Shown one piece after another: positions 5,708 through 55,204 of a stretch of DNA of 64,000 nucleotides. The DNA lies in assembly GCA_008690995.1 (NCBI GenBank), contig VRMN01000001.1, positions 310,001-374,000 on the forward strand, given 5' to 3'. Under the pieces are notes generated by a model. The model did no database searches and was not told where the DNA came from. It saw only the letters and a list, made by a program, of their open reading frames with translations. Position 1 is the stretch's first letter. Every line of letters starts with the position of its first letter. Source of the stretch: Porphyridium purpureum (lineage: Eukaryota). A program made the translations under genes and the position numbers.

Positions 5708-5760
5708 GTACAGTGTGTACAGTGTGTACAGTGTGTACAGTGTGTACAGTTTGTACAGTG
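5708..5760. repeat. Tandem 9-bp repeat (GTACAGTGT) x6 in the divergent WD40/GCL promoter
   Basis: Direct reading: four GTACAGTGT, one GTACAGTTT, one partial copy. Confidence 0.95.
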
Positions 5761-5909
5761 ATCGCGCGCAACGGAGCGTGCGGGTGGCGCGGGGGGAGAA
5801 AGAGCCGCGAGGGAGAAAGTGCTTGTAGGTGCGCGAGGGGTGAGGGGAGAGGGTGGGTGGGTGGGTGGGTGGGTGGGCTGGGGAGAGACAGGGCGGAGCG
5901 GGGGACGGC

Positions 5910-11526: not shown

Positions 11527-11665
11527 ACTTACTATCTCTAGTTGCGCTTCTTCCCTCTCCCTTTCCCGTCTCTCAGAGTCTCACTCAAACACACTAACAC
11601 CACATGTATACTTTCCGCGTCCCGCGCAGCACTGTCTCTCCGGATACCTTCGTGCACCAGTCCCG

Positions 11666-11767: not shown

Positions 11768-11895
11768 CGGTTTCCCGGTTCAAGGATGACAATTGCCCTT
11801 ACCGGATGACTCTTGTTTCATCATTCAGAAGCACGTCATGATTACATGAAAGGTGTACTCGCGGTACAGTTTCGTTCCTCGGTTGAACATGATTC

Positions 11896-12202
11896 TGTTA
11901 AGATGTGTGGAGCATGGCAGTTAACGGTTAGTGGTTAACTTTTAGTCGTTAAGCCGTTAAGCTGATCACTGATAAGGGACGTGACTTGAGAAGGGAAACT
12001 CTCGGCTGCGGTTGTTGGCCGGCGGTAGGAGCGTAGGAGAATGGGTCCGTTGGCTTATAAGTCGCGCGCGAAGCTCGGTGCTGAGCGCGAGCGCGGTGGG
12101 CTTCGGTAGGGAGTGCGAGTTGGAAAAGTTATACGTTTAGAACTTGATAAACTTGGTCGTTGGATTGGAGGTTGTCCATCAGCGGAGCGAGGTTTCCGAA
12201 CA
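11896..12202 (+). repeat. Copia-1 5' LTR
   Basis: Direct repeat of 23616-23922; one difference seen (A11919 vs G23639). Confidence 0.97.
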
Positions 12203-12215
12203 TAAACGTATTACC

Positions 12216-13394
12216 ATGTCAACGAGAGGCGGTGCAGCGGGAGGAGCCAGGGGAGCGGCGGCGCGAGGAGGATCGCGTGGACGCGGAAAAGGGCACCACC
12301 TGACCACCGCTCGGGAGAAGGGGGCGATGGCGGAACTGCCGTTGTTAAAGTACACGGCGCGCGGATCCACCCCCGCCTACACTGTGGTCGCTTGGTTCAA
12401 AGAGTTAGGGAACTACGTCAGGCTCCACTTTGGAGAAGTTGGACGTATCTTCGATCTGAGCGAGCATGGAATGGAATACCCAACAGCAAATCCTCCATCT
12501 GCAGAGGCATTCGCAGCGGCAGAATTGTCGGGCCTCCCTCAAGATGTCGCAGCTCTCGTCAAGGCCGAGAACGTGCGCATAGTCATGCAGAGCTACCATA
12601 AGAAAGTCCGGGAGCTCGAAGAGGCCAAACCGAAGGTGTTTGCCGTGATCGTGGGGCAGCTGAGTGAAGCGTCTGTAGACGCACTGAAGCGCATGGGCTC
12701 ATTCGATGAGCTGGCAGCTTCTGCCAACGATCCCCTGGAGCTCGCCAAGCAGGTGCTTGCAGTGCACATGACGCTCGGATCTGACAGCGCTGTTCAGAAT
12801 CAGCTGTATGCGGCGGAAATGTTCCACAAGCTGGCAATGGAACCGGGTGAGTCGCTCGTGCATTTTCGAGCCAGGTTCGACGCGACAGTGCGAGCCATGG
12901 ATGCCGTTGGCGAGCACACAGGAGACGCGAAGAGGCTGGCTGCCGACTTCGCGCGCAAGCTCGAGATTTCGGGAGCGCACAGAAACACCATAGTGCACCT
13001 GCAAAACACGGGCGCGGTACTGGACACAGTGAATGAGATTGTGCGAGCAGTTTCAAACTATAAAGTCGTTCCAGTTGGAGCGGTCCCACGGGTCGGTACA
13101 ACTTTTGTGGCAGGACGTGAAGACGACGAAAGCAACGATGAGGATGAACCTCATTCCGGCAGCAAACCCGTGAAGCGCAAGGTGGATGTGAGCCGGGTGC
13201 GCTGCTACAATTGCCAGAGGATGGGCCACTTCAAATCGGACTGCACTGAACCAAACGTGGTGGTCACTCTTCGCCAGGAAGTTGAAGAGATGAAGAAAGC
13301 CCTGAGGGCAAAGAAGAAAGAGCGCAGCACTACGATGGTGGCCGTAGACGACGATGAGGCGACAGGTGGAAGTGAGTCGGGGAGCGACATTTGA
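12216..13394 (+). CDS. gag: Copia-1 Gag
   Basis: CCHC knuckle CYNCQRMGHFKSDC. Ends at TGA 13392-13394, in frame with pol. Confidence 0.9.
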   Translation: MSTRGGAAGGARGAAARGGSRGRGKGHHLTTAREKGAMAELPLLKYTARGSTPAYTVVAWFKELGNYVRLHFGEVGRIFDLSEHGMEYPTANPPSAEAFAAAELSGLPQDVAALVKAENVRIVMQSYHKKVRELEEAKPKVFAVIVGQLSEASVDALKRMGSFDELAASANDPLELAKQVLAVHMTLGSDSAVQNQLYAAEMFHKLAMEPGESLVHFRARFDATVRAMDAVGEHTGDAKRLAADFARKLEISGAHRNTIVHLQNTGAVLDTVNEIVRAVSNYKVVPVGAVPRVGTTFVAGREDDESNDEDEPHSGSKPVKRKVDVSRVRCYNCQRMGHFKSDCTEPNVVVTLRQEVEEMKKALRAKKKERSTTMVAVDDDEATGGSESGSDI

Positions 13395-14155
13395 CGGCGC
13401 GGCGCGTTGCTGCCAAAGCAGCACCGCGCGACTGTCTGCACAGGTGAGACGTTTGCAGTAGGAGAAATCGGGATTGACAGTTGCTCCAGCGACCACGTCT
13501 TTCGCGACCGTGACCTCGTGAAAAACACGAGGCGCGCAGCGAAAACGCTATTGTTGAACGGCATCAATTCGGCAAAGCCAGTGCGCATCGCATGTATTGG
13601 GGACAGTGAGTTTGGCACTGTCTACCTTTCGCGCAAGGTCTGCGGAAACGTACTCAGCCTGGGACGGTTGCGTGCTGACGGGCATAAAGTGCTCTTTCAT
13701 GATAGGTCTAATACATTTAGACTCTATTACGATAAAAGCATCTTTACGTTCCGTCCGCGCGCAGACCACATCTACACTACCACACTCCCAATCACCATAG
13801 GCAAAACACTGCTGCTCGAAGGAACAGCTGCGGAACGAGAAAATGATTTTTCGCCGAGACAGGTGGCAAGCGCAAAAGCGGCGCGCGATTTGGCGCGCAG
13901 GATGGCATATCCGTCACTCAAAAACTTGAGAGACGCACTGAGAAATGGCGGCATAATGAATTGCGAGGTGAGCGCGCGTGACGTAGATCGCGCGGAGACA
14001 ATCTGGGGCCCCGCGGTACCGGTTCTAAAAGGACGAGCCACCGGCCACAAAAGCCCGATCGAGCAGGAGTCCTGTCAAGCACGGATGAGTCGCGAAATAT
14101 CACTGCGCACAGACTTAATGTTTGTAGACGGCTATGTGTTCGTTGTGAGCGTGTG
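13395..14155 (+). pseudogene. pol: Copia-1 Pol, 5' part (protease and integrase N-terminus)
   Basis: Protease motif IDSCSSDH and integrase TDLMFV. Cut by the gypsy insertion; removing the insertion and one TSD copy restores the frame as ...VVSVC-KPMQYI..., matching LISVVKPMHFI in Copia-2. Confidence 0.9.
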
Positions 14156-14447
14156 TGTCACAAACGGAGCTTCTTTTCTTTACTTCTTCTTCTCTCCTCC
14201 TCTACCTACTCTCTTCTTCCTAGCCTTTTTTCTTCGTTCGGCTGCCGCTCGCTCTGTTTTATACCCGCCTTCCGGCGCCGCAACGGCTTGCCCGGCGGGT
14301 TCAGCCCTCGGAATAACCCAATCCCGCGGCCCTCAACATAACTCAGCTGTACCACACGGTACACCCACAGCTGTACTTTCAGTACACTTAGGGACTGTAC
14401 CTCTGCGTACTCGCTGTACTGAGACCTGCATCAGGTCGCTCGCGACA
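14156..14447 (-). repeat. Gypsy 3' LTR
   Basis: Direct repeat of 20090-20381. Confidence 0.96.
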
Positions 14448-14953
14448 TCCCACACTTCCCGCTTATCCACAGCGACCATTGCGATAGCGTGTTCTAAGCC
14501 CACGCGCCGCATGCATAGCAGCCGTTCCCGTGCCGCTCAACAGGTTCAAGCACAATGAGCTGAGATCGAGCGGACGAAGTACAGTGTAAGCTGACAGGGT
14601 ACAGTGCCAGCAACAGGGCCAAAAAAATAAGGTGGCCGGTGCCGCTCACAAGTGACGCCCACTGACAAGACCCCGTACAGGCTGCCATCCCCCTCCCCCG
14701 CTAACCTTAAAGGAAAGGTGCGCTGTTACGGCTCTGCCCAATGTCACCCCGGGGAATTACCCTAGCCACGGATCCCCAGCATTTCACAGGGGCAGTTTTC
14801 TCTAATCAGGGAGTGTCTAAGATCCTCTTCAATTCTCGTTTGCCAAACTGCCGAAATTTAGAGTATATACACCCCCAAATATGGACTCAGGTACAGTATT
14901 ACTGTACTTCACTGTACACAGACTGTACTTCATTTTGTTCTTTATCATTCGTT

Positions 14954-15110
14954 CTACCGTCTTGCTGCGGGCACGGCTCCTTCTTTACCGTCCAGCCATG
15001 GACACAGCTCCTTCTTTAATGTCCAGCAACGGACACAGCTCCTTCTTTATAGTCCAGCAACGGACCCAGCTCCTTCTTTACCGTCCAGCCACGGACACTC
15101 CATCTTTATT
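14954..15110. repeat. 31-bp tandem repeat (~4.5 copies) in the gypsy 3' UTR
   Basis: Unit GGACACAGCTCCTTCTTTAnnGTCCAGCAAC starting at 14969, 15000, 15031, 15062, with a partial copy at 15093. Confidence 0.92.
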
Positions 15111-15155
15111 CGAACATTTTTTTTGAGAGCAGCGACGGCCGATAGCCACCCAGCG

Positions 15156-18100
15156 TCAAACACCTTCTGCCATGTCTCGGTACGCGGCTACCAGCATGGG
15201 CGGGAGCGTCTTCTCAGCCTCCCATGTGTCGCCTCGCTTCCCCATACCCCGCCATCTCACCTTGTACTCGCGGCCTCCACCCGCAGCCCGATCTTCCACA
15301 ATTGCCTCCACCACCCAACTTGCATCTCCTCCAGCGAACACGTTCGTGCCGGCCATGTCTACCACGTCCGGGTCTGCCTTGTGCAAGCGGTTCACATGCA
15401 CGAGCTGGCCATGGAGCTCTGCGTCATCTCGGCCGTTTGCGCTGACCACGACTGCGTGAACCCCGTTCCGCTTTGTGATGCGGAAAGGTCCGAGCCACGG
15501 CTTTGTCAGCTTGCGACCCTGCCTCGTACTTGGGCACCACACGTATACGATGTCGCCCTCGGCAAACGTTTCCTTGTTCCGATGAATGTTTCTGTCATAG
15601 TACCTTGCAAACCTCTCGGCGTTCTCCGACATCTTATTCCCGGCGAGCCGATAGGCGCGCGCCAGCTGTGCGGAGATATCTTGCGGTTGCTGGCCCCCTT
15701 CAACCGCTCGCGGTCCGGCCATGCTTGCCCAGTCCTTGGCTGGCGACCCAAACATCATTTCGTACGGCGAGAAGCCGGTGGCTGCGTGGCGCGACGTGTT
15801 GTACGCGTAGGTTACAACGGACAGCCACCTATCCCAGTCGCGCGAGCTTGCACTGACGTACGCCGACAGCATCTTGCACAGGGTCGCATTGAAGCGCTCC
15901 ACCCTTCCGTTCGTCTGCGGGTGGTAGGCTGTCGTCATGAGCCTCCGGATTCCGAGTCTGGCGCAAAGCGACGTGATCACCTCACCGACAAAGTTTGAGC
16001 CCCGGTCGGACAAGATGGACTCCGGCGGGCCAAAGACAGTCAACCACGTCTGCAGGAAACTCCGCGCCACGGTCTCTGCCTTCTCGTCCGGGAGCGCCAC
16101 GGCAACCGCCCATCGCGTCCAAGCATCCATCATGACGAGCACCTTGATATTTCCCGTTCGCGTCTCCGGACTGATGGTGAGGATGTCCATGCCTACAATT
16201 TCAAAGCGTCTGGACGCCGAGTACTGCACCATCGCCGCGTTCCGGCGGGGTGGTGGTGCCTTGCGCGCTATGCACTCGTGGCAGCACCGAACGAACTTCC
16301 GAACGTCTTCTGTCCACCCGGGCCACCACCACTGCGCGTCGGCTATCCTCGCCGCCGTCCTCGCCGTCCCCATGTGAGCTGACAGCGGGGCTCCGTGATA
16401 GACGTTGAGAACTGCCGACACAAGCGCGTCAGGGACCACCCGCCTGGGCATGTCTTTCAGCAACGCAAACACAATCCCGTCTTCGTCCACGATATACTCA
16501 GGGAAGGAGTACTTTGGCGCGGGTCCTGATAGGTTCTTGAGCTCCGCGCAGATTTGCTCGTCCTCTGCGTACGCTGCTCTGAGCTCGTCGTCCGTGGGCA
16601 CAGCGTATAGCGCCCCACTGTCTTGCGTGTCCCGTACCTCCCGGACCTCTTCTTCCGTGCCAGTGTCCAGAGGAGTACGCGATAGCGCATCGGCCACGAT
16701 ATTCGCTGCGCCTGGCTTGTGCTTCACGTCAAACTCGAAATCTTGCACGCGCATGATCCACCTTGCCGTCCGACCCCGTGGCTCTTTCTGGCGAAGCAGC
16801 CACAGCAGCGCCGAGTGATCCGTCACGAGAATGAACTTCTTGCCGAACAGATAGTGCCTGAACTTTTCCATGGATAGTATGGCACCCAAGCACTCTTGCT
16901 CCGTGACGCTGTAGTTCAGCTCTGCGCCTCGGAATGCCCTTGAGTAAAAGGCCACCGGGCGCCGCTGGTCCCCTTGAAGCAAGACCGCGCCAATGCCCAC
17001 CTGGCTCGCGTCGACTTCAAGAACCATCTCGGCGGCCGGATTGAATGCAACCAGGACTGCGCTACCGTCGTCCATCGGATCACCTAGCGCATGGCGTAGG
17101 TCTATGAACGCGGCGCGCTGGTCGTCCCCGAATCTGCTCGCCCACTCTGCGCCACCGGCCGTCTTCCGGTGGAAGCCACCTTTCTTGTCCGTCAATCCGA
17201 GCCCAGTCAGCGCTCGCCTCAGCGGGAGGGCACGCTCCTCGAAGTTCGGTATGAAGTTACGAAACCAGCCGACCAGTCCCAGGAACCGCTGCAGGTCCTT
17301 CGCTTCTTCTGGCTCTGGCCACTCCAGGATTGCCCGCGTCTTATCTACCCCAGGCCGCAAACCTTGCGGGCCAATGCGATGGCCCAGAAACTGTACTTCT
17401 GCCAGAGCAATCTTGCACTTGCGGGCCGACAGTGTAAGTCCCGACGCCGCGAACCTTCGCAAGATCTGACGAAGTCCTTCCACATGTTCCTCGAAGGTCT
17501 CATGTCCCACTGTCAGATCGTCAATGTAGATCTGCGCGTGTGCATGGCGCATAGGGCCCAAAATCCGGTTGTTGAGTCGCTGAAACGTTGGCGGGCTATT
17601 GCAGCAGCCCTGCGGCAGACGCGTGTATTCAAATAGCCCCTCACGTGTGATCATGGCAGTCAAATGCATGCTTTCTGGCGCAAGGGGCACCTGGAAAAAC
17701 CCGTCCTTGAGATCGAGAGCGCTCTTCCATCGGCGCCTCGAAAGCCAGTCGAGCATCTCCCCAACGTCTGGGATTGGGTACCTGTCCTTGATTGTGATTG
17801 CATTGAGCGGGCGAAAGTCGGTAGTCATCCGATACGATCCATCTGGTTTCCGGATCAGTACGTTGGCTGCTGCACACTCCGACGTGCTCGGCTGCAGCAC
17901 TCCCTTAGCGACAAGGGCTTCGACCAGGCTGCGCTCAGCCTCGTTCTCGGCCTCTGAGCGCCTGCGCACTTTGGCCACCAGAGGGCGCTGGCCCGGTTCG
18001 ACAGTGATGGTGTGTTCCACCAGGTCCGTTAATCCCATGGACGGCCTGAACAGCACCCACGCCTCAGCTAGGACGTCGCCGACTCGTTTGCGCTGCTCGG

Positions 18101-18764
18101 GCTCGAGATGCCCAAGCTCGATGGCCGCGGCGTTGCGCAGGGCTTCCTCTTTCTCGGCCGCGTGCTTCTGCTCCAGCTGGGCGATTCGACGATCAATCTC
18201 GCCCGGTTCTTCAAGATGACCGATGTGTTCTGGGCCCGGCAGACCACTCACTTGCTCGAACGGTAGAGAACCTCCACGCTTGAAGAACACAGCTTGACCT
18301 GGCAGCACGGCCGCGACTTCTCGAACCTGGAAGTCCCAGCCGATTAAGAGATCTGTCTTGAGGTGTTCCGCCACTCGGACCGTCTCGCACGGAAAAACGA
18401 AAGACCCGAGATGCAGATCCAGAAACCCAACGCTGACTCTGCCCAAGGAGGCGCCGTCCGGCCCTCGCGCTCCCCAACTTGACGGCTGCGTTTTCAAGCC
18501 GAGCCGGTCAGCCACGCTCGGGCTCACCCATGTTGAGTTTGCGCCCGTGTCCAGAACTGCCAGTGCGACCACTGCCTGGCCACATGCGGTGAGCTTCACC
18601 CGCAACGTCGGACTGTTGTCCGCACGCACGGCCAGCTCCGCGTCGCCGTCTTGTTCCTTGGCGTACGCCGCGCCTTGCAACTCTGCCTCACCTGAGGCAT
18701 CGCCCGGCTCCCACCATTCCATGCAGGGGGCAGCTACTGCTTGCTGCCCCACTGCCCGTTTTTT
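15156..18764 (-). CDS. pol: Gypsy Pol (PR, RT, RNase H, integrase, chromodomain), entered by -1 frameshift
   Basis: LDTGA protease, RT YIDD, RNase H VDAS...E...TDH, integrase H-H-C-C and SDRGSNF, GPF motif, chromodomain WVVEAIV...EYKVRWRG...DTWE. Confidence 0.95.
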   Translation of the reverse strand, partial: KKRAVGQQAVAAPCMEWWEPGDASGEAELQGAAYAKEQDGDAELAVRADNSPTLRVKLTACGQAVVALAVLDTGANSTWVSPSVADRLGLKTQPSSWGARGPDGASLGRVSVGFLDLHLGSFVFPCETVRVAEHLKTDLLIGWDFQVREVAAVLPGQAVFFKRGGSLPFEQVSGLPGPEHIGHLEEPGEIDRRIAQLEQKHAAEKEEALRNAAAIELGHLEPEQRKRVGDVLAEAWVLFRPSMGLTDLVEHTITVEPGQRPLVAKVRRRSEAENEAERSLVEALVAKGVLQPSTSECAAANVLIRKPDGSYRMTTDFRPLNAITIKDRYPIPDVGEMLDWLSRRRWKSALDLKDGFFQVPLAPESMHLTAMITREGLFEYTRLPQGCCNSPPTFQRLNNRILGPMRHAHAQIYIDDLTVGHETFEEHVEGLRQILRRFAASGLTLSARKCKIALAEVQFLGHRIGPQGLRPGVDKTRAILEWPEPEEAKDLQRFLGLVGWFRNFIPNFEERALPLRRALTGLGLTDKKGGFHRKTAGGAEWASRFGDDQRAAFIDLRHALGDPMDDGSAVLVAFNPAAEMVLEVDASQVGIGAVLLQGDQRRPVAFYSRAFRGAELNYSVTEQECLGAILSMEKFRHYLFGKKFILVTDHSALLWLLRQKEPRGRTARWIMRVQDFEFDVKHKPGAANIVADALSRTPLDTGTEEEVREVRDTQDSGALYAVPTDDELRAAYAEDEQICAELKNLSGPAPKYSFPEYIVDEDGIVFALLKDMPRRVVPDALVSAVLNVYHGAPLSAHMGTARTAARIADAQWWWPGWTEDVRKFVRCCHECIARKAPPPRRNAAMVQYSASRRFEIVGMDILTISPETRTGNIKVLVMMDAWTRWAVAVALPDEKAETVARSFLQTWLTVFGPPESILSDRGSNFVGEVITSLCARLGIRRLMTTAYHPQTNGRVERFNATLCKMLSAYVSASSRDWDRWLSVVTYAYNTSRHAATGFSPYEMMFGSPAKDWASMAGPRAVEGGQQPQDISAQLARAYRLAGNKMSENAERFARYYDRNIHRNKETFAEGDIVYVWCPSTRQGRKLTKPWLGPFRITKRNGVHAVVVSANGRDDAELHGQLVHVNRLHKADPDVVDMAGTNVFAGGDASWVVEAIVEDRAAGGGREYKVRWRGMGKRGDTWEAEKTLPPMLVAAYRDMAEGV
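18727..18764 (-). promoter_or_regulatory. -1 programmed ribosomal frameshift signal
   Basis: A AAA AAC in the gag frame, 7-nt spacer, 8-bp stem GGGGCAGC/GCTGCCCC. Pol is in the -1 frame. Confidence 0.88.
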
Positions 18765-20032
18765 GGTCCGTGGCTCAAGCCACCGTCCGGATACGGCGCA
18801 CGTGGTGCTCCACCTTGGCCCGCGGGGCGATGCACTCCCCCATCGGCCCGTGGCCATCCATTGCGGCAATCCCTCTTCAAGTGTCCAAGTTCGCCGCACT
18901 GCCAGCACTGCGGCTGTCCGGGCAAAGCAGTCGGAAGGGCTTGGCGCTTGGCCTGTGGCCCGAAGCTCTCGACCTGGTACACATCCTCTGCGTACAGGCC
19001 GTAGTCACGACCGCGCTTCTGGATCGTCGTGCCCGGGACCTCGCCTATGCGGCCCACTCTCTCGCGGCCAAGCGGGCGTTGCTGGCCAAACGGAGGAAGC
19101 GGGCGACTCGGTAGACCCTTCAAACCATCTTCACCGACGTGGTCCACCAGAGCTGAGCGCAGCTTGGTGAACGAGACGCTCACGCCGATCATGCGGACCG
19201 TGTTCTTCAAGAACGCGGAGTCCATGGCTTCGATCAACACGTCCTTCTTGTCCTCGTCGTCCATCTTGAGCCCGTCAGCCTTGGTCTCCAGGTCGTTCAG
19301 AAAGACACTCAAGCTGGCTTTCCCCGGTTGGAACTTCATGCGGCGGAGCTCGGCTTTCAAAGCCTGGCGGTGCTCGACATTGAAAAACATGGACTCCAGT
19401 GCCTTCCACACACGGTTCGCTGCGCCGGGCCCTGCCGCATCGACATCTTTGATCACGGCTTGGTACCTTGACACCGCGGGCCCACCAAAGCAAGCGCTGA
19501 TGTGCTCCGCGACATTGTCCCTTGCGAGGCCAAGTGTGTCCGCGTGCGACTCCCAGCAGGTCCGCGACGCGAAGAAATGAGCGTCACCTGGGGCCTTGAT
19601 AAGAACTTGAGCACTGCGGACCGCCTCGCGAAAGGTTGCTGCGAGCTTCAACTGCTCCTCCCAGAACGACCGATCCATGGTACGGCCCGAGGTCTGCGCC
19701 GAGTTGCGGCTGTGCGCCTGGGCCTCCAGTTCAGCAACGCGAGCGCGAAGGGCCATCACTTCGGCTCCGCCCGGTGCAGCTAGGTCTCCAACCGGGACAA
19801 CGGACTCTGCGTCGGCTGCGGCTTCCAGGTGACCTGGCGTCCCCTGCTCATTGTCGACAGCTTCACCCTGGTGCTCCACGACAGGCCCGTCTTCTGGCGC
19901 TGGGCCCCCGGCACGAGCGGCCCCTGCTTCGATGATCGCGGATCCGCTGCGTGGCTCCCCAAGTCCTGCCACAACTGCTGCCTCGCGAGGCCCACCTGCC
20001 TCTCCAACTCCTGCCCCACGCCCACGCGCCAT
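18734..20032 (-). CDS. gag: Gypsy Gag
   Basis: CCHC knuckle CWQCGELGHLKRDC; position directly after the 5' LTR. Confidence 0.88.
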   Translation of the reverse strand: MARGRGAGVGEAGGPREAAVVAGLGEPRSGSAIIEAGAARAGGPAPEDGPVVEHQGEAVDNEQGTPGHLEAAADAESVVPVGDLAAPGGAEVMALRARVAELEAQAHSRNSAQTSGRTMDRSFWEEQLKLAATFREAVRSAQVLIKAPGDAHFFASRTCWESHADTLGLARDNVAEHISACFGGPAVSRYQAVIKDVDAAGPGAANRVWKALESMFFNVEHRQALKAELRRMKFQPGKASLSVFLNDLETKADGLKMDDEDKKDVLIEAMDSAFLKNTVRMIGVSVSFTKLRSALVDHVGEDGLKGLPSRPLPPFGQQRPLGRERVGRIGEVPGTTIQKRGRDYGLYAEDVYQVESFGPQAKRQALPTALPGQPQCWQCGELGHLKRDCRNGWPRADGGVHRPAGQGGAPRAPYPDGGLSHGPKNGQWGSKQ

Positions 20033-20089
20033 CCTATCCCACTCCCAACCCCACACTTCCTCGCTCCCACACGACCAATTTGCAAATTA

Positions 20090-20381
20090 TGTCACAAACG
20101 GAGCTTCTTTTCTTTCCTTCTTCTTCTCTCCTCCTCTACCTACTCTCTTCTTCCTAGCCTTTTTTCTTCGTTCGGCTGCCGCTCGCTCTGTTTTATACCC
20201 GCCTTCCGGCGCCGCAACGGCTTGCCCGGCGGGTTCAGCCCTCGGAATAACCCAATCCCGCGGCCCTCAACATAACTCAGCTGTACCACACGGTACACCC
20301 ACAGCTGTACTTTCAGTACACTTAGGGACTGTACCTCTGCGTACTCGCTGTACTGAGACCTGCATCAGGTCGCTCGCGACA
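20090..20381 (-). repeat. Gypsy 5' LTR
   Basis: Direct repeat of 14156-14447; TATAAAA on the minus strand followed by a purine-rich R/U5. Confidence 0.96.
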
Positions 20382-20385
20382 TGTG

Positions 20386-23300
20386 TAAGCCCATGCAATA
20401 TATATTGCTGGATCGTGTCACGAGCAAGAGCGCTCATCATCTGCAAGAGGCGTTGCATAAGCAGTTCGCTAGCTTGAAAAGCTTCGGTGCAAAAGTTGTC
20501 GAGATCCGCAGCGACCCAGAGAGCGGAATTGTGGCCGCAGTTGACTGGATGAAAAGCAATGGTGTGATCCCAGACATACTGGCCGCAGGCGAGGCTGTCC
20601 AGCCCGCAGAAAGGGCCATCAGAATGGTGAAAGAGCGAATGCGGTGCGTCCTGAGCGGCTTACCATTCCGAATGCCGAAGAGCCTAACCGGGTTCCTGGC
20701 TGAGTATGTAGTGCAGCGCATAAACATGATGAAAAGCTCCGTTGCGCCAGAGTACGATGGGCGATCGCCATATGAGGATCTGACAGGGCGCCTGGTTGAC
20801 GCGAAGAAGGAGCTAGCACTCGGATTTGGAGACTATTGCCAGTCGCACAGCAAGAGCGTCGACAGCACAATGGCCGAACGAACGACAGGATGCATCGCGC
20901 TGCGTCCGACCTTAAACCTGGCCGGATCATGGCTGTTCTACAACCTCAATACAAAGAACATCATCACGCGACAGAAGTGGAACCAGTTACCGCATCCAGA
21001 CTTCGTTATATCCAGGATGAACGAAATTGCTGAGCAACAGAGTGCGAGTGGTGTCGTCATAGATATTGAGGACCAGCCGCATGACGACGAAGAAGAGGAC
21101 GTGGAGGGCTTGCTAATCGATGAGCAAGATCGGCCGGAGCTGAACGCAGCGGCACAGGAAGATGTCGACCTTGTTGTGGTGGAAGCGGATGAGGACGGCG
21201 ACGCCTCGGTGGAAACGGCAGAAGAGAACGCGCGCCAAGCACAAGGCGATCCAGTCCTGGAAGAGCTGTGCACAGCAGAGGTAGCCAGTAATGCAGCGCA
21301 GGAGGCACTCGGAACTGAGACGCGCATTCCAACCGAACAAAGCCCCGCGGAGAGTTATAGTAGTCCGCAACAAGACGTTAGAGCTCTGCGATCGCAGCTC
21401 ACTGTTAGAATGCAAGCGCCGCTGGGTACCGCAAAGACGCGCTCGCCGACGAGCACGCAAGGACCTGGACAGCAACATTTTATTCCATCTGCCTCACAGA
21501 TTGTGCCTCGCGCCACAGCACCCGAAGCAAGTCCAGCGATTCGGCAAGAATACCAAGGCAGCACGCTTGCACCGAGCGCTTTGAACGACCAGCGGCTTTC
21601 AGACATGAGCACGTCAGGTGGTCGGAACGGTTGCGAGCCAGAGGTCATTGTTGATCCGCTGACAAGAACAAGCACAGCGACATACATCGACGAGCACATG
21701 GTGAAGCTGGCGGGAAAGAGGGCGCGAGCCAACGGCTCTGTGAGAGCAGAAGACATCGCCGAGAAAGTGGCCAAGCTGCAACGCAGGATTGACGAAATTG
21801 ATCAGCGTGAAAAGGAAATAGTGGAAATACAGAAAAGGACAGAGAAGAATGATCGGAGCAAAACCGGAAAGCGGAAGCAGAGCAGTGAGGACTGGGCGGA
21901 TGACGAAGAGTCTCACAAAGCGGACGCCAAAAAAGGACGAGCCTTTGTGCTGTCTGCGAATAAGAAGGGTCTTACAGCAAACATGAGTCTGATGTCGGCT
22001 TTCCGAAAGCATGGCTTGAAAGCGGTCCGTGCGGTCGTCAAGGAGGTTGCGCAACTGGATAGTAAGTATGGCTTTGGGGTTATCACTCCCGTGAGTGTGC
22101 AGAGCCTGTCAGAGGCTGAGAGGAAGCAGATCCTACCCACTCACATATTTCTCAGAGAGAAGCTTGACGCAGATGGATCGATCCAGAAAATCAAAGCCAG
22201 AGTTGTAGCGGGAGGCAATCACCAGGATCCAGCAGTGTACCCGAAGAAGTCGTCACCGACTGTTGCCACAGATAGTCTGTTATTGCTCGCAGCAATAGCA
22301 GCCAACGCAAAGTACGCTGTGGGTAAGGCTGACTTTCCCGGTGCGTTCTTGAATGCACTAATGCCTCCTGATGGTCCAAAGGTACACGTGAGGTTGGACA
22401 GGTACCTGACGAGGGTGTTATGTGGCCTAGACGACAAGTATCTTCGTTACGTGCGCTCCGATGGCGGCTTGGTGTGCGTTTTGAAAAAGGCGCTGTACGG
22501 AACAATCATGGCCGCGCGCCAGTGGTTCCTGACGGTAAAAAAGATGTTGCAAGAACTGCGCTTTTCGCAGAATCGATTCGACGAGTGCGTATTCAGACGC
22601 GGCAATGTATCGCTCGCAATACACGTTGACGACATAATCGTGTTCGCTCCGTCCGCGCGCGAGGTGAAAATTGTGTTGGATGAAATCGAGCGCAGGTACC
22701 CAGGACTGCAGAGAGAGCAGGGGGATACCGTCGAGTACCTGGGTATGCGCTTTGCATTTGACAGAAGTACAGCCACTGTGCTGGTTAGCATGAATGGATA
22801 CATCGGCACCATGCTGAGCGAGTTTGGTGCAAGTGGACGGGCGCGCACGCCGGCAGGTACTGACCTGTACGAAGTGGGATCGACCGAAAGGCTCACAAGA
22901 GATAAGAAAGACGATTTCCACACGTGGACAGCGAAGCTGTTGTACGTAGCCAAACGCGTGAGGCCAGACATCCTTACGGCCGTCGGGTATCTGACGACGA
23001 GGGTGCACGAGCCGAACATTCGCGATTGGCAAAAGCTGGAGCGTGTCATGAAGTATTTGGCAGCCACCCAAGAAATGGGTCTGCGACTTGGAGCGAGCAC
23101 GGAGAAAACAGTGGTCTGCGGTGCGGACGCGTCGTACGGTGCATGCGACGACTATAGGTCGGTCACGGGGACTTCGGTCACGTTGGGTACCGGGGCTGTG
23201 TACGCCAGGAGCAGCAAGCAGAAGCTTGTGACAAAAAGTTCGACAGAAGCCGAACTTGTCGCTGCCAGCGACAGTCTCGGGCAGGTGCTTTGGACGGCGC

Positions 23301-23644
23301 GGTTCCTTCGCGATCAAGGCTTCGAGCTCAAAGAGAGTGTGTTGCTTCAAGATAACAACTCTGCCATAGCGCTGATGAAACACGGCAAGCCAACCTCCAT
23401 GAGGACAAAGCACATCGGAATCCGGTATTTCGTCGTGCACGACGCAGCGGATAGAGGCGACATACGCGTCGTGTATTGCCCAACCGAAGATCTGACCGCA
23501 GATCTGTTAACGAAACCTCTCCAGGGCAAGGTCTTTGAAAAGCACCGTGCGAACTTGCTCGGCTCCGCGAGCACGAAACACGTTGCTTATGACAACACGC
23601 GCCAAGGAGGGAGTGTGTTAAGATGTGTGGAGCATGGCGGTTAA
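20386..23644 (+). pseudogene. pol: Copia-1 Pol, 3' part (integrase core, RT, RNase H)
   Basis: SDPES...AERAIR integrase core, KARVVAGG, LKKALYG, HVDD, SSTEAE, TKHI, ADLLTKPL. Stop codon lies inside the 3' LTR. Confidence 0.92.
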
Positions 23645-23922
23645 CGGTTAGTGGTTAACTTTTAGTCGTTAAGCCGTTAAGCTGATCACTGATAAGGGAC
23701 GTGACTTGAGAAGGGAAACTCTCGGCTGCGGTTGTTGGCCGGCGGTAGGAGCGTAGGAGAATGGGTCCGTTGGCTTATAAGTCGCGCGCGAAGCTCGGTG
23801 CTGAGCGCGAGCGCGGTGGGCTTCGGTAGGGAGTGCGAGTTGGAAAAGTTATACGTTTAGAACTTGATAAACTTGGTCGTTGGATTGGAGGTTGTCCATC
23901 AGCGGAGCGAGGTTTCCGAACA
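23616..23922 (+). repeat. Copia-1 3' LTR
   Basis: Direct repeat of 11896-12202, followed by TSD GATTC. Confidence 0.97.
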
Positions 23923-49848: not shown

Positions 49849-50203
49849 TGTTGATGTACGTGCAAATGGTTAATGGTTGAATGGTTATCCGGGTCAACGA
49901 CTTGGACTGTTTGGACTGTTTAATGTGTTCGGTCGGGTGCGAGCCTGCGTGCTAGCACGAGCCATGGGCACGTATGTTTGCGACGTTTCTAGAAGTCCAC
50001 ACTGACGTTTCCTTGTCGCTTTGCATCTCCGCGCCGCCGCCACAGTGCAGCTACAGGGGTATAAAATGCTGCAGGGCCAAGGAGTAGGGTGGAAATTTTG
50101 AGTGTAGCGTTTGGGTAGGCGAATATGTTTTTGACGCGAGTGGTATTACAAAGTAAACCGTTTCTTGACTTTGCAGGGTTTACGCCGGGGGCGTACTTCA
50201 ACA
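49849..50203 (+). repeat. Copia-2 5' LTR
   Basis: Direct repeat of 55180-55534; TATAAAA at 50060-50066. Confidence 0.97.
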
Positions 50204-50329
50204 CAAAAACATTCAACGCTTCCTCCGCTTCGTCAAGAGTACGAGCGGAAGTAGGATCTCCGGTCAAGGGTACGGGGGGACAAGGCCGACGGCGCTGACA
50301 GGAAGTTCGAGCGGCGTGCGGCAGACAAA

Positions 50330-51361
50330 ATGGCCAAGAAGATTGGCGAAAAGGGAGTAACGGAGGGACTCCCGCTACTGAGGTATGATGCGACCGAGAT
50401 GCGGCCGGCCGAGGAAGTCACGGAATGGCTCCGTGCGCTTGGAGGCTACACAGCTGTTGAATTTGGGTTGCTCGGAGCGATTTTCGACCTCAATAATGCG
50501 AGGTACCCAGAGGGCCCGGCCCTACCGGACGCAGAGGAGCCCGACAACTGGAGAGACAAGGAAATCGCCAAATCACAGTTGAGCACCGCGCTCAAATGGA
50601 GCGCGGATATGGAGCTCGCGAGGTCCAGAATCTATGCGATTATGCGCGGACAGCTGTCTACGTCTTCCGTTGCGGCTCTTTCTGCTCGCCCGCAGTTTGA
50701 GATGCTTGAAAGATCTCGCAACGATCCTCTCCAGCTGAAAAATCTAATCGTCGTGGTGCACCTGACACCGAATGGCGCATCCGTGGATCGTTGCCGTACA
50801 TTTGCACGTGAGCGGTTTCAAGCTATAGAAATTGGAGCAGATTCTCTGGATGATTTCAAAACCAGGTTTGCGGCCGCAGCGATGGTTCTCGCCCTTGTAG
50901 GCGAGGAGATGAGTGCAGCGCGTCAGGCGGAAGAGTTCTTCCATAAGTTGGAGCGGTCGCGCTTCGCAGAGGCAATTCGCCAAGCCCACAATGCCGAGCG
51001 ACAATTTGCAAGCGTTCAGGACGTGGTTTTGTACGTCTCCGCGTACAAGTATGCGCCTGGTTATGTGTCCGTTTCAGTTGCGCAATCCAATGAAGCCCAG
51101 TTAGCCATCGAGGCGGCCACTGTAAGTGGTGAAGCGATAGCTGCGGTTGCAAAAGCTGATGTAGGCGGTTCCAAGGGGAAGTGTCATTTTTGTGGTATCC
51201 CGGGACACCTGGAGAAGAACTGCTGGAAGAAGAAGAGGGCACTGGAAAGGAACCAGACCAGGGACGCTCACACACGAACCATGGAAGAAAAACTTGGCGA
51301 GTGCCAGCGTCAACTTCAGGAACTTAAGCTGGAGCTCAAGAAAGAGCGCACGGTCGAGTGA
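50330..51361 (+). CDS. gag: Copia-2 Gag
   Basis: CCHC knuckle CHFCGIPGHLEKNC; homologous to Copia-1 Gag (LPLLRY, GQLS, NDPL). Ends at TGA in frame with pol. Confidence 0.9.
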   Translation: MAKKIGEKGVTEGLPLLRYDATEMRPAEEVTEWLRALGGYTAVEFGLLGAIFDLNNARYPEGPALPDAEEPDNWRDKEIAKSQLSTALKWSADMELARSRIYAIMRGQLSTSSVAALSARPQFEMLERSRNDPLQLKNLIVVVHLTPNGASVDRCRTFARERFQAIEIGADSLDDFKTRFAAAAMVLALVGEEMSAARQAEEFFHKLERSRFAEAIRQAHNAERQFASVQDVVLYVSAYKYAPGYVSVSVAQSNEAQLAIEAATVSGEAIAAVAKADVGGSKGKCHFCGIPGHLEKNCWKKKRALERNQTRDAHTRTMEEKLGECQRQLQELKLELKKERTVE

Positions 51362-54300
51362 GGAAGCGGCCCGTTGCGACACGTGTATGTCCACCGGGCG
51401 ACAAACAGGGAAGCGGCCACAGTGGGCCTTGATACAATGGCTTCGGAGCATATCTTTTCGAGTGGTGAGGCGGTTACGAACGTGCGCAAGACGGACCGGA
51501 AGGTCGTGCTGCACGGAATTGACGCCGGATCAAGTGGAATATTTATTGACGAGATTGCCGACACCAAATTTGGCGAAGTGTACTACTCGCAGAAAGTGGC
51601 CGGGAACATCTTGTCATTCGCCAAGCTGAGGAACGAAGACAAGGGCACCAAGTATGACATGGCCGGGGACGTGTTTGTTGTTCTGGATGTTGACAACAAG
51701 GAAGTGCGTTTCAGACAGGACCAGGGGCTGTATGTGGCGGATATCTGTTGCGTAAGTGGTAAGATAAACGCATACGCAGCTCCTTGCAATGGCCTGACGC
51801 ACGATCTTGACAACATTCCCGCACACAAATGCTTCTCCACTGACAGCCGCCACAACTCCATGGAGCGTTCAGCTTTACCGTTACCTAGTGGCGGCAAACC
51901 TTCGCCCTTCACAAAGCAAGAGATAGCCCGGGCAGAACAAGCGCGCGACTTACAACGTCGCTTGGGATTCCCTTCGTTCGACGTGCTGAAAAAAGTGCTT
52001 AGGCGCGGGGATGTTGAAAATTGTAATTTGGCCGCGCGGGATGCAGAGAGAGCCGAACAATTGTTTGGCCCAAGCGAAGCCGCGATCAAAGGAAAGGCAA
52101 CTGGACACAAGCCTACGGAAGTTGGCTACGTCCCGATAAGAAATGAGGAGGTCTACCAAGAGATGCATTCGGATATCCACTTTCTCTGCGGACAAGCCTT
52201 CTTGATTTCTGTCGTGAAACCAATGCACTTCATTCTGACAACAGCGATCAGAGCAAAGACGTCATGGGAGCTGCGCCGGGCACTGCAAGAACAAATTGCC
52301 AGTTTGCGAGGTCACAACGTGGTGATCAGGGTCATCAAGTCGGACCCGGAATCGGGGATTGTTGCTATCGTTGATGACATGAAAAGGTCCGGCATATTAC
52401 CAAATGTCACGGGAGCGAAAGAGGCCGTACCAGCAGTGGAGCGTGCCAATCGAACGCTGAAGGACATAGCGAGGGCTGTCATCCATGGCCTACCCTTTGC
52501 ATTGCCGACCAGCTTGGTTCCAGCGCTAATGAAGTATGTAACTCACCGGGCCAACATCGTACCAAGCAGCACAGGTTGGCGAGATGACGAGACTCCGTGG
52601 ACCAGAATGACCGGGCGAAAAGTTAGCAGCACAGCCGATGTGAGTCTCGGTTTTGGCGATTACGTTCTCATCATGAATGCCAAGGTGGACAACACGATGA
52701 CACCACGCGCCACCGGCTGTATAGCTCTATACCCGGTAGGCAATGTTGAAGGAACGTGGGCTTTTCTAAACCTCGCGTCGCAGAAAGAGTTGCGCAGACA
52801 ACGGTGGAGGAAAACTGTCATTACACAAGAGGTTGTTGCCGCTGTTAACGCCATGCGTGGCACTGCGCGCCTTGAACTCGCGACAGAAGATCATGAGCAT
52901 GAGGCAGAAAAACATGACACCGCCGGACGGGAGGCAGGCAAGCCAGCTGGGGCAGCAGCGACTCGAACAGCTAGTGGGTTGACCTTGTCAGCCGGAGCGT
53001 TTAGCGAGACACGTGCAGCGCGTTCTGCGAATGAACATGAAGAAACTCTGGAGAATTCGCGCACGTCAGCAGTAGTAGAATCATCACAACCGAACCGTAA
53101 TCCAGGAGCGGGAGAAAACGCAGAGGAAAATCCGGGAGTGCGGGTCGAAGCAATCGAGAAAAGAATTGAGGAATTATCTCGAAAAGAGGCCATTCTGCAG
53201 GAACAGATCCACGCGCTTGACAAACGTGCTGCTGCCTACCAGGTCAGCGACGATCACGACGTCTTAGGCGAAGGTCAGGCTGTTCAAGTCGGCGTGGTCG
53301 AAGGGGCACCTGCAGAGTGGGATCTCGCAGATTGCACAATGACAACGAAAAACGTACTGGACGGACATGGTGAACAGGCTGGACCGGCTTCTGTCGGCGG
53401 ACTTAGCACCAAAAGAACGGCAGCGGATCAAGGCGGAAGTGACGGGTGCAATACATACGCAGGGGAAGCAAAAAGGCGTAGAATTAGGCTAGCTCTAATT
53501 ACAGAGTTTGTCCAAGCGCACTGTTTGAAAGCGCCGACCGTCTCATGGTTGAGAGCAGTCCAGGAGTATGGCGAGCCTGCACTTGAATCGGTCATGAGCG
53601 AGCTCGTGCAGTTGGGGTCCAATGGTCACGACGTGTTTGAGCCTGTGACAAGGAGACTCAGTGAAGACGAGTTGCGCAATGTTTTGCCCGTGCATTTGTT
53701 TGTGACGGAGAAACGTGATCCACAAACCGGAGAGCTTGTGCGCTTGAAAGCTCGACTGGTTGCTGGGGGTGATCGACAGGATCCGGAGTTGTACCCAAAT
53801 ACGTCGTCCCCAACAGTCGCTACTGAGTCGTTGTTTGCGCTTGCTGCCATGTCAGCAACACAAGGGAGAAAGGTTGCCAGTGTAGATTTTCCAGGTGCGT
53901 ATTTGAATGCAGTGATGCCAAGCGGTGATCCACCCGTTTTCGTTCGGTTCGCAAAGGCGCTGGCGAAGTGTATGACGACCGCTGATCCGACACTCCAGAG
54001 CCATTTGTCTGCTTCAGGTACATTAGTCTGTCGCTTGAAGAAAGCATTATATGGTTGCCGGACGAGCGCAAAGTTATGGTATGACCATCTATGTCGAAGC
54101 CTCGCGGCGTTGGGATACCAAAGAAGCATGGTAGACTATTGCGTGTTCAGAAGCGATGAAGACGACACCTGGTTAGCTTTACACGTGGACGACATGAAGA
54201 TTATGGCTGTAAACGACGCCGCGATCGTCAAACTGGTAAAGGGACTCGAGCCGGAGTACGGAGTGCTCACGATGCGCAGCGGCAGTGGGATTGAATATTT

Positions 54301-55204
54301 ACAAATGGTTTTTGACTATAACCAACCTGGTCAAGTTACCGTCAGGATGCCCGCATACGCGGACAAGATCATTGAGCAGGCCGAGCCATTTGTGCTGGGT
54401 AAGGTCGGTGGCAAAACCCCCGCATTGGACGACCTGTTTCAGGTTCAAGACTCGCCATTGCTGGCTGCTTCCTCCGCGAGAGCCTTCCACACGACAGCCT
54501 GTCAACTTCTTTATCTCAGCAAGAGGGCGAGACCAGATCTGCTGGTCGCGGCATCATTCTTGACGGGTCGAGTACAAGCCCCAACCGAACAAGACAGAGA
54601 AAAGCTGCGCAGGGTTGTGCAGTACTTGCAAGGAACGCGCGAGCTGGGGCTCACACTTGGGTGCGTCGGAGCGCCGCGCGTGCACTGTTTCATTGACGCG
54701 TCCTTTGGTGTGCACAGCGACATGAAGAGCCACTCTGGCTGCATGGTCAGCCTGGGCCGCGGAACGGTGTACGGGAAGAGCAGCCGTCAGAGTCTCGCGT
54801 CCAAGAGCTCAACAGAGGCAGAGCTAGTCGCCATCAGTGACTGCATAGGTCAAGCTCTCTGGATCGAGAGGTTGCTGCGAGGGCTCGGTGTGGAGTGCCT
54901 CAGCACCCTGTTGTACCAAGATAACGAGGCCACCATGAAATTAGTTCGTAACGGGCGTCCCAACTCGTCGCGGACCCGACACATTGCTCTGAGGCACTTC
55001 TTCGTCAGCGACAGAGTTGCATGCGGCGAGATAGAGATGACGTACTGCCCCACGGAGCAGATGGTGGCGGACGCTCACACCAAGCCCCTGCAAGGAAAAG
55101 CTTTCCGCTCACTTCGTGAACGCATGTTGGGCGTTGAGGTTGCGAATCTAGCGCAGGCTAACACGGACCGACGGGAGTGTGTTGATGTACGTGCAAATGG
55201 TTAA
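51362..55204 (+). CDS. pol: Copia-2 Pol (PR-IN-RT-RH), presumably translated by readthrough
   Basis: LDTMASEH, SDIHF, SDPES, VERANR, KARLVAGG, LKKALYG, HVDD, SSTEAE, TRHI. No ATG precedes the protease Asp; stop lies inside the 3' LTR. Confidence 0.93.
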   Translation, partial: GSGPLRHVYVHRATNREAATVGLDTMASEHIFSSGEAVTNVRKTDRKVVLHGIDAGSSGIFIDEIADTKFGEVYYSQKVAGNILSFAKLRNEDKGTKYDMAGDVFVVLDVDNKEVRFRQDQGLYVADICCVSGKINAYAAPCNGLTHDLDNIPAHKCFSTDSRHNSMERSALPLPSGGKPSPFTKQEIARAEQARDLQRRLGFPSFDVLKKVLRRGDVENCNLAARDAERAEQLFGPSEAAIKGKATGHKPTEVGYVPIRNEEVYQEMHSDIHFLCGQAFLISVVKPMHFILTTAIRAKTSWELRRALQEQIASLRGHNVVIRVIKSDPESGIVAIVDDMKRSGILPNVTGAKEAVPAVERANRTLKDIARAVIHGLPFALPTSLVPALMKYVTHRANIVPSSTGWRDDETPWTRMTGRKVSSTADVSLGFGDYVLIMNAKVDNTMTPRATGCIALYPVGNVEGTWAFLNLASQKELRRQRWRKTVITQEVVAAVNAMRGTARLELATEDHEHEAEKHDTAGREAGKPAGAAATRTASGLTLSAGAFSETRAARSANEHEETLENSRTSAVVESSQPNRNPGAGENAEENPGVRVEAIEKRIEELSRKEAILQEQIHALDKRAAAYQVSDDHDVLGEGQAVQVGVVEGAPAEWDLADCTMTTKNVLDGHGEQAGPASVGGLSTKRTAADQGGSDGCNTYAGEAKRRRIRLALITEFVQAHCLKAPTVSWLRAVQEYGEPALESVMSELVQLGSNGHDVFEPVTRRLSEDELRNVLPVHLFVTEKRDPQTGELVRLKARLVAGGDRQDPELYPNTSSPTVATESLFALAAMSATQGRKVASVDFPGAYLNAVMPSGDPPVFVRFAKALAKCMTTADPTLQSHLSASGTLVCRLKKALYGCRTSAKLWYDHLCRSLAALGYQRSMVDYCVFRSDEDDTWLALHVDDMKIMAVNDAAIVKLVKGLEPEYGVLTMRSGSGIEYLQMVFDYNQPGQVTVRMPAYADKIIEQAEPFVLGKVGGKTPALDDLFQVQDSPLLAASSARAFHTTACQLLYLSKRARPDLLVAASFLTGRVQAPTEQDREKLRRVVQYLQGTRELGLTLGCVGAPRVHCFIDASFGVHSDMKSHSGCMVSLGRGTVYGKSSRQSLASKSSTEAELVAISDCIGQALWIERLLRGLGVECLSTLLYQDNEATMKLVRNGRPNSSRTRHIALRHFFVSDRVACGEIEMTYCPTEQMVADAHTKPLQGKAFRSLRERMLGVEVANLAQANTDRRECVDVRANG

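What the first reader, a model, noticed from the sequence alone, without database searches (positions are those of the whole stretch)
12131..12211. Copia-1 has no tRNA PBS: 9-nt self-complementarity to its own LTR suggests Tf1-like self-priming in a Ty1/copia element
Seen: the bases directly after the 5' LTR (TAAACGTAT, 12203-12211) do not start with TGG. They are the exact reverse complement of ATACGTTTA at 12131-12139 inside the LTR, which starts 72 nt from the LTR end and downstream of a TTATAA. The 3' end of that 9-mer would pair with the base abutting the LTR's terminal CA, exactly where minus-strand synthesis must start. Established: S. pombe Tf1 and related Ty3/gypsy elements prime from the 5' end of their own transcript after RNase H cleavage, whereas Ty1/copia elements use whole or half tRNAs. 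Inference: this is a self-priming copia lineage. I am not aware of a description of one, but a literature check is needed.
Basis: partly seen in the sequence, partly recalled or inferred. Interest (0 to 1): 0.92.

Follow-up and report, generated by a model that had tools for sequence, protein, structure and literature searches.

The report
Self-priming copia retrotransposons in red alga
Two jumping genes in this red-algal DNA, and most testable relatives from aquatic environments, carry a primer site that matches their own terminal repeat instead of starting like a tRNA site, so they likely start copying themselves with a piece of their own RNA, an idea already proposed for a plant group of the same superfamily.

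Summary
Observation confirmed: TAAACGTAT (12203-12211) abuts the TSD-defined LTR end and is the exact reverse complement of 12131-12139 (0.06% of LTR shuffles). A second copia in the window (about 42% RT-RH identity) has the same layout with other letters. Among 21 metagenome relatives chosen without regard to pairing, 17 show a 10-22 nt exact match to their own LTR and 3 more do on closer inspection; one does not. In 19 of 26 relatives the match starts at an initiator-like YCA. The host is a Porphyridium-type red alga. Self-priming is the best explanation (0.8). Self-priming copia is already in print (plant TAR lineage: Houba, Osr-1). RNA reads place about two thirds of LTR-driven 5' ends upstream of A12131, mostly 12113-12130 (chiefly one other LTR copy), so the primer may be a 5' fragment longer than the 9 paired bases, unlike Tf1. 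This scan reported the same clade-wide pairing before, mainly in diatom genomes. New here: the red-algal branch, the 9-bp duplex, transcript data, and an intact young copy (Copia-2) for testing.

The parts
11891..11895 (.). Left target-site duplication GATTC (right copy 23923-23927)
11896..12202 (+). Copia-1 5' LTR, 307 nt, TGTT...AACA; one difference from the 3' LTR
12056..12060 (+). TATA-like TATAA, 75 nt upstream of the 9-mer
12098..12138 (+). Zone where sense RNA reads of this LTR family begin (piles at 12098, 12115, 12119; steepest rise 12113-12130); reads mostly from another LTR copy
12131..12139 (+). Predicted paired 3' end of the self-primer, ATACGTTTA (second copy 23851-23859 in the 3' LTR)
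   Evidence: helix pair probability 0.95-0.98 in 12 of 12 folding contexts
12203..12211 (+). Primer-binding site TAAACGTAT, directly after the LTR, complementary to 12131-12139
12216..13394 (+). gag, 392 aa with CCHC zinc knuckle, ends in TGA in frame with pol
13395..14155 (+). pol, 5' part (protease and start of integrase, by similarity to Porphyridium Copia proteins)
14156..20381 (-). Nested chromodomain Ty3/gypsy element that interrupts Copia-1 pol; 292-nt LTRs, 4-bp TGTG duplication
20386..23644 (+). pol, 3' part (rest of integrase, RT of RVT_2 type, RNase H); stop lies inside the 3' LTR
23601..23615 (+). Polypurine tract ending GGGAGTG; a similar GGRG(T/C)G end occurs in most relatives
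23616..23922 (+). Copia-1 3' LTR
49849..50203 (+). Copia-2 5' LTR, 355 nt, identical to its 3' LTR (55180-55534), TSD TTTAC
50125..50133 (+). Copia-2 predicted primer end ATGTTTTTG, 79 nt from the LTR end, 65 nt after TATAAA (50060)
50204..50212 (+). Copia-2 primer-binding site CAAAAACAT, complementary to 50125-50133
50330..55204 (+). Copia-2 gag (to TGA at 51359-51361) and in-frame pol (1280 aa, uninterrupted); 99.8-100% identical to a protein named Copia protein [Porphyridium purpureum]

Best explanation
Copia-1 is a young red-algal Ty1/copia retrotransposon, here interrupted by a nested gypsy element, whose primer site is complementary to a 9-base segment of its own LTR, and it likely primes minus-strand DNA synthesis with a fragment cut from the 5' end of its own RNA rather than with a host tRNA. 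Shown: the pairing abuts the LTR end, covaries between families, and lies in the first few tens of bases of LTR-driven RNA. Inferred by analogy with Tf1: the RNA folds back so that 12131-12139 pairs with 12203-12211. The element's RNase H would cut between A12139 and G12140, and the new 3' OH would be extended into 5'-TG..., giving a 63-nt strong-stop DNA (12202 to 12140). Plus-strand copying of the attached primer would renew the primer site, which would explain why each family's site tracks its own LTR. In most aquatic relatives the paired block starts at an initiator-like YCA, as if it were the first 10-22 bases of the RNA. In this red-algal family most RNA starts about 5-30 bases further upstream, so the primer is predicted to be roughly 15-40 nt long with only its last 9 bases perfectly paired, or a minor start at A12131 supplies it.
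For: (1) Exact 9-nt complement at offset 0 from a TSD-defined end; 0.06% of shuffles. (2) Copia-2 (41.7% RT-RH identity) has other letters in the same layout; 0.96% of shuffles; cross-pairing between the two gives 5 and 3 nt. (3) Of 76 related loci, 21 had an LTR followed by gag or PR-IN, judged by HMM or CCHC without looking at pairing. 17 of 21 have an exact 10-22 nt match (shuffle p at most 0.007). L037 and L059 match 13 of 14, and L004 matches at least 12 nt at an LTR ending ATCA that my ACA rule missed (found afterwards). (4) Across 28 positives, own-LTR match averages 13.6 nt against 4.3 nt for cross pairs; 6 of 756 cross pairs reach 9 nt; 0 of 28 sites start with TGG. (5) 19 of 26 relative blocks start at YCA against a 6% background. 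(6) In L040 the LTR end is fixed by an LTR pair; a 16-nt match follows the 5' copy and 5 nt the 3' copy. (7) The core helix has pair probability 0.95-0.98 in 12 of 12 contexts for Copia-1. (8) Sense RNA reads start within 12098-12138, so the 9-mer is near the RNA 5' end and not in U3. (9) The Tf1 mechanism is described in a review, PMC7175516 (passage).
Against: No cleavage, primer or cDNA was observed. About two thirds of LTR-initiated read depth lies upstream of A12131 (X23 0.67, X24 0.68), unlike Tf1, where the primer is bases 1-11. These reads come mainly from one other LTR copy reading into flanking DNA (221 of 265 reads in X24); only 1-5 reads cross the primer site. The core duplex is weak (-7.2 kcal/mol), and the extra leader pairing is no better than shuffles (P 0.20-0.23 for Copia-1, 0.07-0.25 for Copia-2). 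The overall fold is not unusual (z -1.0). For Copia-2 the helix probability ranges from 0.00 to 0.99 and is low when the RNA is started at the 9-mer. Nine bases is below the 10-bp cut-off used by Neumann et al.. L049 has a clear LTR end and no match better than 11 of 14. Host tRNAs could not be screened, because no genome is held.
Confidence: 0.8

Rival explanations
1. The pairing is a structural stem for RNA packaging, dimerisation or control of the nearby gag start codon (ATG at 12216), and priming is done by something else, such as an imperfectly matched tRNA piece or a host small RNA.
For: Most RNA starts upstream of the 9-mer. The predicted extension of the helix covers the gag AUG region. 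A non-priming-model hairpin at the primer site was described for fungal GalEa copia (PMC5445492, passages).
Against: A structural stem has no reason to begin exactly at the first base after the LTR in 17 of 21 families, nor to start at YCA in 19 of 26. No primer-site sequence is shared across families.
Confidence: 0.08
2. Self-priming from the other end: the RNA terminates in the 3' LTR at the second copy of the 9-mer (23851-23859), and this 3' end pairs with the primer site without any cut.
For: The 9-mer is present in both LTRs. In this family it is not at the main 5' end. No cleavage step would be needed.
Against: The initiator-like YCA sits at the 5' edge of the block in 19 of 26 relatives. 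A poly(A) tail would leave the 3' end unpaired. No pile of RNA 3' ends at that place was listed, though depth from 3' LTRs is low.
Confidence: 0.06
3. A host tRNA half or fragment primes each element and the LTR match is incidental.
For: Half-tRNA priming without TGG is known in Osser, Bryco and Bianca copia. Host tRNAs were not available to screen.
Against: Two elements in one host have different sites, each matching only its own LTR (p 0.0006 and 0.0096). The 28 positives start with nine different triplets, whereas tRNA-primed lineages keep one dominant site type.
Confidence: 0.04
4. Chance complementarity in an A+T-rich 9-mer.
For: The match is only 9 nt and low in G+C; the Copia-2 match alone occurs in about 1% of shuffles.
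Against: 0.06% for Copia-1, repeated in Copia-2 and in 17 of 21 relatives.
Confidence: 0.02

Closest known systems
Tf1/Tf2 of Schizosaccharomyces pombe and the Tf1/sushi group (Ty3/gypsy), including plant Tcn1
   Same: No tRNA site; sequence right after the 5' LTR pairs with a segment of the LTR near the RNA 5' end. In Tf1 the first 11 bases pair and RNase H cuts between bases 11 and 12 (PMC7175516, passage).
   Different: Other superfamily (RVT_2, integrase before RT). The duplex is 9 bp, not 11. Most RNA of this LTR family begins upstream of the paired segment. Nothing is shown experimentally here.
TAR lineage of plant Ty1/copia (Houba, Osr-1)
   Same: Ty1/copia with self-priming predicted from LTR complementarity (89% of 203 elements), 5-bp TSD (PMC6317226).
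   Different: Green-plant lineage with a single gag-pol ORF in 79%; here gag and pol are split by an in-frame TGA. No protein named from a plant is among the best 120 hits. No TAR reference was available for a tree.
Diatom Ty1/copia (CoDi-type; Maumus et al. 2009, PMC2806351)
   Same: Proteins named from Fragilaria, Nitzschia and Chaetoceros are 34-35% identical to Copia-1 RT-RH and sit among self-pairing loci in the tree. Earlier notes of this scan report the same pairing in diatoms.
   Different: The window's elements form a separate branch (SH-aLRT 98, quick tree) with Porphyridium proteins. Blocks are 9 nt at 72-79 nt from the LTR end, against 9-22 nt at about 100-200 nt (one at 440). The main text of Maumus 2009 holds none of the terms self-prim, Tf1, primer binding, tRNA or priming.
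GalEa clade Ty1/copia (crustaceans, fungi, also reported from Porphyridium and Porphyra)
   Same: Ty1/copia reported in red algae; fungal members lack a tRNA site.
   Different: Metazoan GalEa keep TGGTAGCAGAGC. Fungal ones have a hairpin downstream of the LTR with no LTR complement. Neither is seen here.
Tca2 of Candida albicans
   Same: Ty1/copia with gag and pol separated by a stop codon (PMC7175516).
   Different: Priming is by an internal tRNA segment (recalled, not from a call).

Membership tests
Ty1/copia LTR retrotransposon | TG...CA LTR pair with 5-bp TSD and PPT | tested here: met
Ty1/copia LTR retrotransposon | RVT_2-type RT, order gag-PR-IN-RT-RH | tested here: met
   RVT_2 at E 1e-19 and zf-CCHC. 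Pfam found no PR or IN; these are placed by colinear similarity to proteins named Copia protein.
Self-primed LTR elements (Tf1-type mechanism) | No tRNA-type site (no TGG) after the 5' LTR | tested here: met
   0 of 28 positives start with TGG
Self-primed LTR elements (Tf1-type mechanism) | Site complementary to own LTR, abutting the LTR end | tested here: met
   9 nt at offset 0 in both window elements
Self-primed LTR elements (Tf1-type mechanism) | Complementarity kept while the sequence changes across families | tested here: met
   17 of 21 by rule, 20 of 21 after inspection; own 13.6 nt against cross 4.3 nt
Self-primed LTR elements (Tf1-type mechanism) | The paired segment is the first bases of the RNA | tested here: inconclusive
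   About two thirds of read depth starts upstream of 12131 and 15-17% within 12131-12138. The reads come mostly from another LTR copy and are ordinary RNA-seq, not cap mapping. YCA at the block start in 19 of 26 relatives.
Self-primed LTR elements (Tf1-type mechanism) | At least 10 complementary bases (cut-off of Neumann et al. 2019) | tested here: not met
   9 nt in both window elements; 10-22 nt in the 17 blind-set relatives
Self-primed LTR elements (Tf1-type mechanism) | RNase H cut releases the primer, which is found on minus-strand DNA | not testable with these tools
   needs particles or in vitro RT
Tf1/sushi group | Ty3/gypsy chromovirus (RVT_1, integrase after RT, chromodomain) | tested here: not met
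   only the nested element has these domains
TAR lineage (plant Ty1/copia) | Clusters with Houba and Osr-1 in RT-RH-INT trees | not testable with these tools
   No reference sequence obtainable (the paper's FASTA is too large to read); no plant-named protein in the best 120 of 1074 hits
TAR lineage (plant Ty1/copia) | Prevailing single gag-pol ORF | tested here: not met
   In-frame TGA in both window elements; TAR single ORF 79%
CoDi (diatom copia) lineages | Clusters with named CoDi elements | tested here: inconclusive
   Diatom-named proteins 34-35% identical and in the same tree; no named CoDi reference and no outgroup
GalEa clade | Site TGGTAGCAGAGC, or palindromic hairpin site in fungi | tested here: not met

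The most novel reading that the evidence does not exclude
A large, old clade of Ty1/copia elements spanning red algae, diatoms and other aquatic eukaryotes primes itself independently of plant TAR and of Tf1. Its red-algal branch uses a different geometry: the primer is cut from inside the RNA leader, a 15-40 nt 5' fragment held by only 9 perfect base pairs. Copia-2, intact with identical LTRs, would give the first experimental proof of self-priming by a copia-type RT/RNase H.
Probability: 0.4. Interest if true: 0.72.

Novelty: new variant of a known kind. Interest (0 to 1): 0.52.

Why it matters
Self-priming has been shown experimentally in Ty3/gypsy Tf1; for Ty1/copia the papers I read give only sequence-based predictions (plant TAR). 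A second, widespread copia clade with the signature suggests that tRNA-free priming arose or persisted several times, which bears on whether self-priming or tRNA priming is ancestral (raised in PMC3601003, passage). LTR annotation pipelines that require a tRNA site would under-call these elements in algae (inference). Copia-2 has open gag and pol frames and identical LTRs in a cultured microalga, so the question is directly testable.

Tried and rejected
No genome is held for the window, so other copies and host tRNAs could not be searched; the window has no tRNA gene. Viral contigs gave no relatives: 53 pattern hits, none confirmed. I recalled a self-priming statement for the diatom element Blackbeard; term searches of Maumus 2009 main text found none (supplements not read), so I dropped it. 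Lin and Levin 1997 and Atwood-Moore 2006 are not held; I saw only their titles in a reference list. My first LTR-start rule cut two bases too early and was replaced. An extended leader duplex was tested and is not better than shuffles. Of 76 loci, 33 had a long ORF downstream of the LTR start and were scored: 21 in the blind set and 12 others, of which 9 were positive; L042, L056 and L058 were negative and look like LTRs followed by host DNA (not proven). 19 loci with gag only upstream were not scored by shuffles (5 had matches of 10-21 nt). 24 lacked a PPT call or gag context. Loci were not deduplicated before counting; within the blind set the only pair at 70% or more RT-RH identity is L015/L029 (71%, which left out L059). 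The tree is a quick IQ-TREE run without bootstrap or outgroup, and 4 frameshifted loci were dropped. The A12133G LTR variant would keep a G-U pair, but too few reads cross the primer site to test compensation.

Full report
Observation. The element has LTRs at 11896-12202 and 23616-23922 (307 nt, TGTT...AACA, one difference) between GATTC duplications. Right after the 5' LTR stands TAAACGTAT (12203-12211). Its exact reverse complement is at 12131-12139, 72 nt from the LTR end. With the LTR end fixed by the duplication, 0.06% of 5000 shuffled LTRs give such a match.

Anatomy. gag runs from 12216 to a TGA at 13392-13394 and carries a zinc knuckle; pol follows in the same frame. A chromodomain Ty3/gypsy element of 6226 nt is inserted in pol on the minus strand (14156-20381, TGTG duplication), so this copy is interrupted. 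The RT is of RVT_2 type. The best hit to its RT-RH is named Copia protein [Porphyridium purpureum] (64%). A second copia in the window is 99.8% identical to another protein of that name, so the host is Porphyridium or very close to it. No genome is held.

An internal replicate. Copia-2 (LTRs 49849-50203 and 55180-55534, identical, TSD TTTAC) is 41.7% identical to Copia-1 in RT-RH. After its LTR stands CAAAAACAT, the reverse complement of ATGTTTTTG at 50125-50133, 79 nt from the end. This occurs in 0.96% of shuffles, and each site matches the other element's LTR over only 5 and 3 nt.

Relatives. An alignment of 43 RT-RH relatives fetched 76 metagenome loci. In 21 of them an LTR start is followed by gag or PR-IN, judged by HMM or CCHC without looking at pairing. 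By a fixed rule (best exact match after any ACA, against 300 shuffles each), 17 of 21 have 10-22 nt complementary to their own LTR, p at most 0.007. L037 and L059 match 13 of 14. L004 matches at least 12 nt at an LTR ending ATCA, found afterwards. L049 has no good match. Of 12 further loci with less certain context, 9 are positive. Over all 28 positives (window elements included), own-LTR matches average 13.6 nt and cross matches 4.3 nt; none starts with TGG. LTR ends in these loci rest mostly on the terminal inverted repeat; in L040 an LTR pair fixes the end independently and the match follows only the 5' copy. In 19 of 26 relatives the block begins at YCA (background 6%), which resembles a transcription initiator (motif recalled). 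The window's elements have TTA and ATA there. A quick tree without outgroup puts both window elements with Porphyridium proteins on one branch (SH-aLRT 98). Self-pairing loci occur throughout the tree, including next to proteins named from Fragilaria, Nitzschia and Chaetoceros.

Transcripts. Three stranded RNA runs with the same species label as the best DNA holder were laid on the 5' region, and two of them at 4-nt resolution. Sense depth is low in U3 (9-26 at 12062) and rises to 125-234 by 12170. Piles of 5'-side ends are listed at 12098, 12115 and 12119, none at 12131. After removing the U3 baseline, 67-68% of the plateau is reached by 12127-12130 and 15-17% is gained within 12131-12138. 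Read ends lie at or downstream of true starts, so most RNA begins upstream of the 9-mer. Limits: the reads come mainly from one other LTR copy that reads into flanking DNA, only 1-5 reads cross the primer site, the three runs are from one study, and this is not cap mapping.

Folding. The 9-bp helix forms with probability 0.95-0.98 in all 12 start/end combinations for Copia-1. For Copia-2 it is 0.93-0.99 when the RNA starts at 50092 (32 nt after TATAAA) and 0.00-0.58 when it starts at the 9-mer, which fits a longer leader. Further leader pairing appears in the predicted structures but is not better than shuffles, and whole-region z-scores are -1.0 to -1.7.

Mechanism. Shown: position, covariation, closeness to the RNA 5' end. 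Inferred from Tf1 (review PMC7175516, passage): fold-back, an RNase H cut after A12139, extension from the new 3' OH into the terminal TG, and a 63-nt strong-stop DNA that needs the RNA to end beyond 23859 in the 3' LTR. Copying of the attached primer during plus-strand synthesis would keep site and LTR matched (my inference). I give self-priming by a 5' fragment 0.8. The rivals are a structural stem with another primer (0.08), priming by the RNA 3' end (0.06), a tRNA fragment (0.04) and chance (0.02).

Literature. Neumann et al. 2019 (PMC6317226; passages and Additional file 5 read; files 1 and 3 too large to read) predict self-priming for the plant TAR lineage, 89% of 203 elements, and cite an earlier proposal for Houba and Osr-1. 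A self-priming Ty1/copia is therefore not new. Eight searches of the held library listed no paper whose title or shown abstract describes it for red-algal or diatom copia. Term searches in Maumus 2009 (PMC2806351), Donnart 2017 (PMC5445492), PMC3587641, PMC3601003 and PMC5006619 showed none in the passages returned. Subscription journals and these papers' supplements were not seen. This scan has noted the pairing before: 31 findings in at least 6 genomes, 7 of the 8 shown on diatom-type copia and one on a Perkinsus element; none came up for this genome or for Porphyridium. I had seen the covariation before that look-up.

Verdict. The feature is real and the element very probably primes itself. 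It works like Tf1 but is not a Tf1/sushi member, and membership of TAR or CoDi could not be established. It is a new variant of a known kind: a red-algal branch of a wide aquatic clade, with a short duplex, transcript starts upstream of it, and an intact testable neighbour. Interest 0.52.

Noticed in passing
window 13392-13440 and 51359-51420; L004, L016, L068, L069, L073: gag and pol are separated by an in-frame TGA in both window elements and in at least five loci (L075 has TAG). Copia-1, L069 and L073 have TGA CGG, and Copia-1 has a predicted stem-loop just downstream: a candidate stop-codon read-through signal. The public protein P0085 joins gag to pol by skipping 13 codons after the stop, probably an artificial intron.
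   Followed up: partly
window 14156-20381 (-), bases after its 5' LTR at about 20060-20089: The nested chromodomain gypsy has neither TGG at the LTR edge nor an LTR complement (3 nt). It has a 12-nt palindrome AATTTGCAAATT one base after the LTR, with TGG 12 nt from the LTR end. Its priming is unexplained; the palindrome recalls the fungal GalEa site.
   Followed up: partly
window 12111-12202, runs X22-X24: One LTR copy of this family elsewhere in the genome (AA at 12183-12184) acts as a strong promoter reading into flanking DNA and gives most LTR reads. An antisense RNA ending near 12159 comes from another copy.
   Followed up: no
window 13146-14150: DNA and RNA depth step up at 13146 with a shared loose end, suggesting a related or deleted derivative that shares only the end of gag and the start of pol.
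   Followed up: no
window 14959-15113: 31-nt tandem repeats in the 3' non-coding part of the nested gypsy.
   Followed up: no
window 25280-25467: A degenerate partial copy (82%) of the gypsy LTR.
   Followed up: no
L027:6030-6265 and L030: The LTR-start region of L027 folds back as a long inverted repeat at the contig end, and its LTR begins TGTGTG. By eye a 14-nt complement occurs before gag in L027; not counted.
   Followed up: no
window 904-11580: Host genes with long uninterrupted frames flank the element: ankyrin-repeat-like, WD40-like, glutamate-cysteine ligase-like and ClpB/Hsp101-like, named by eye from translations.
   Followed up: no
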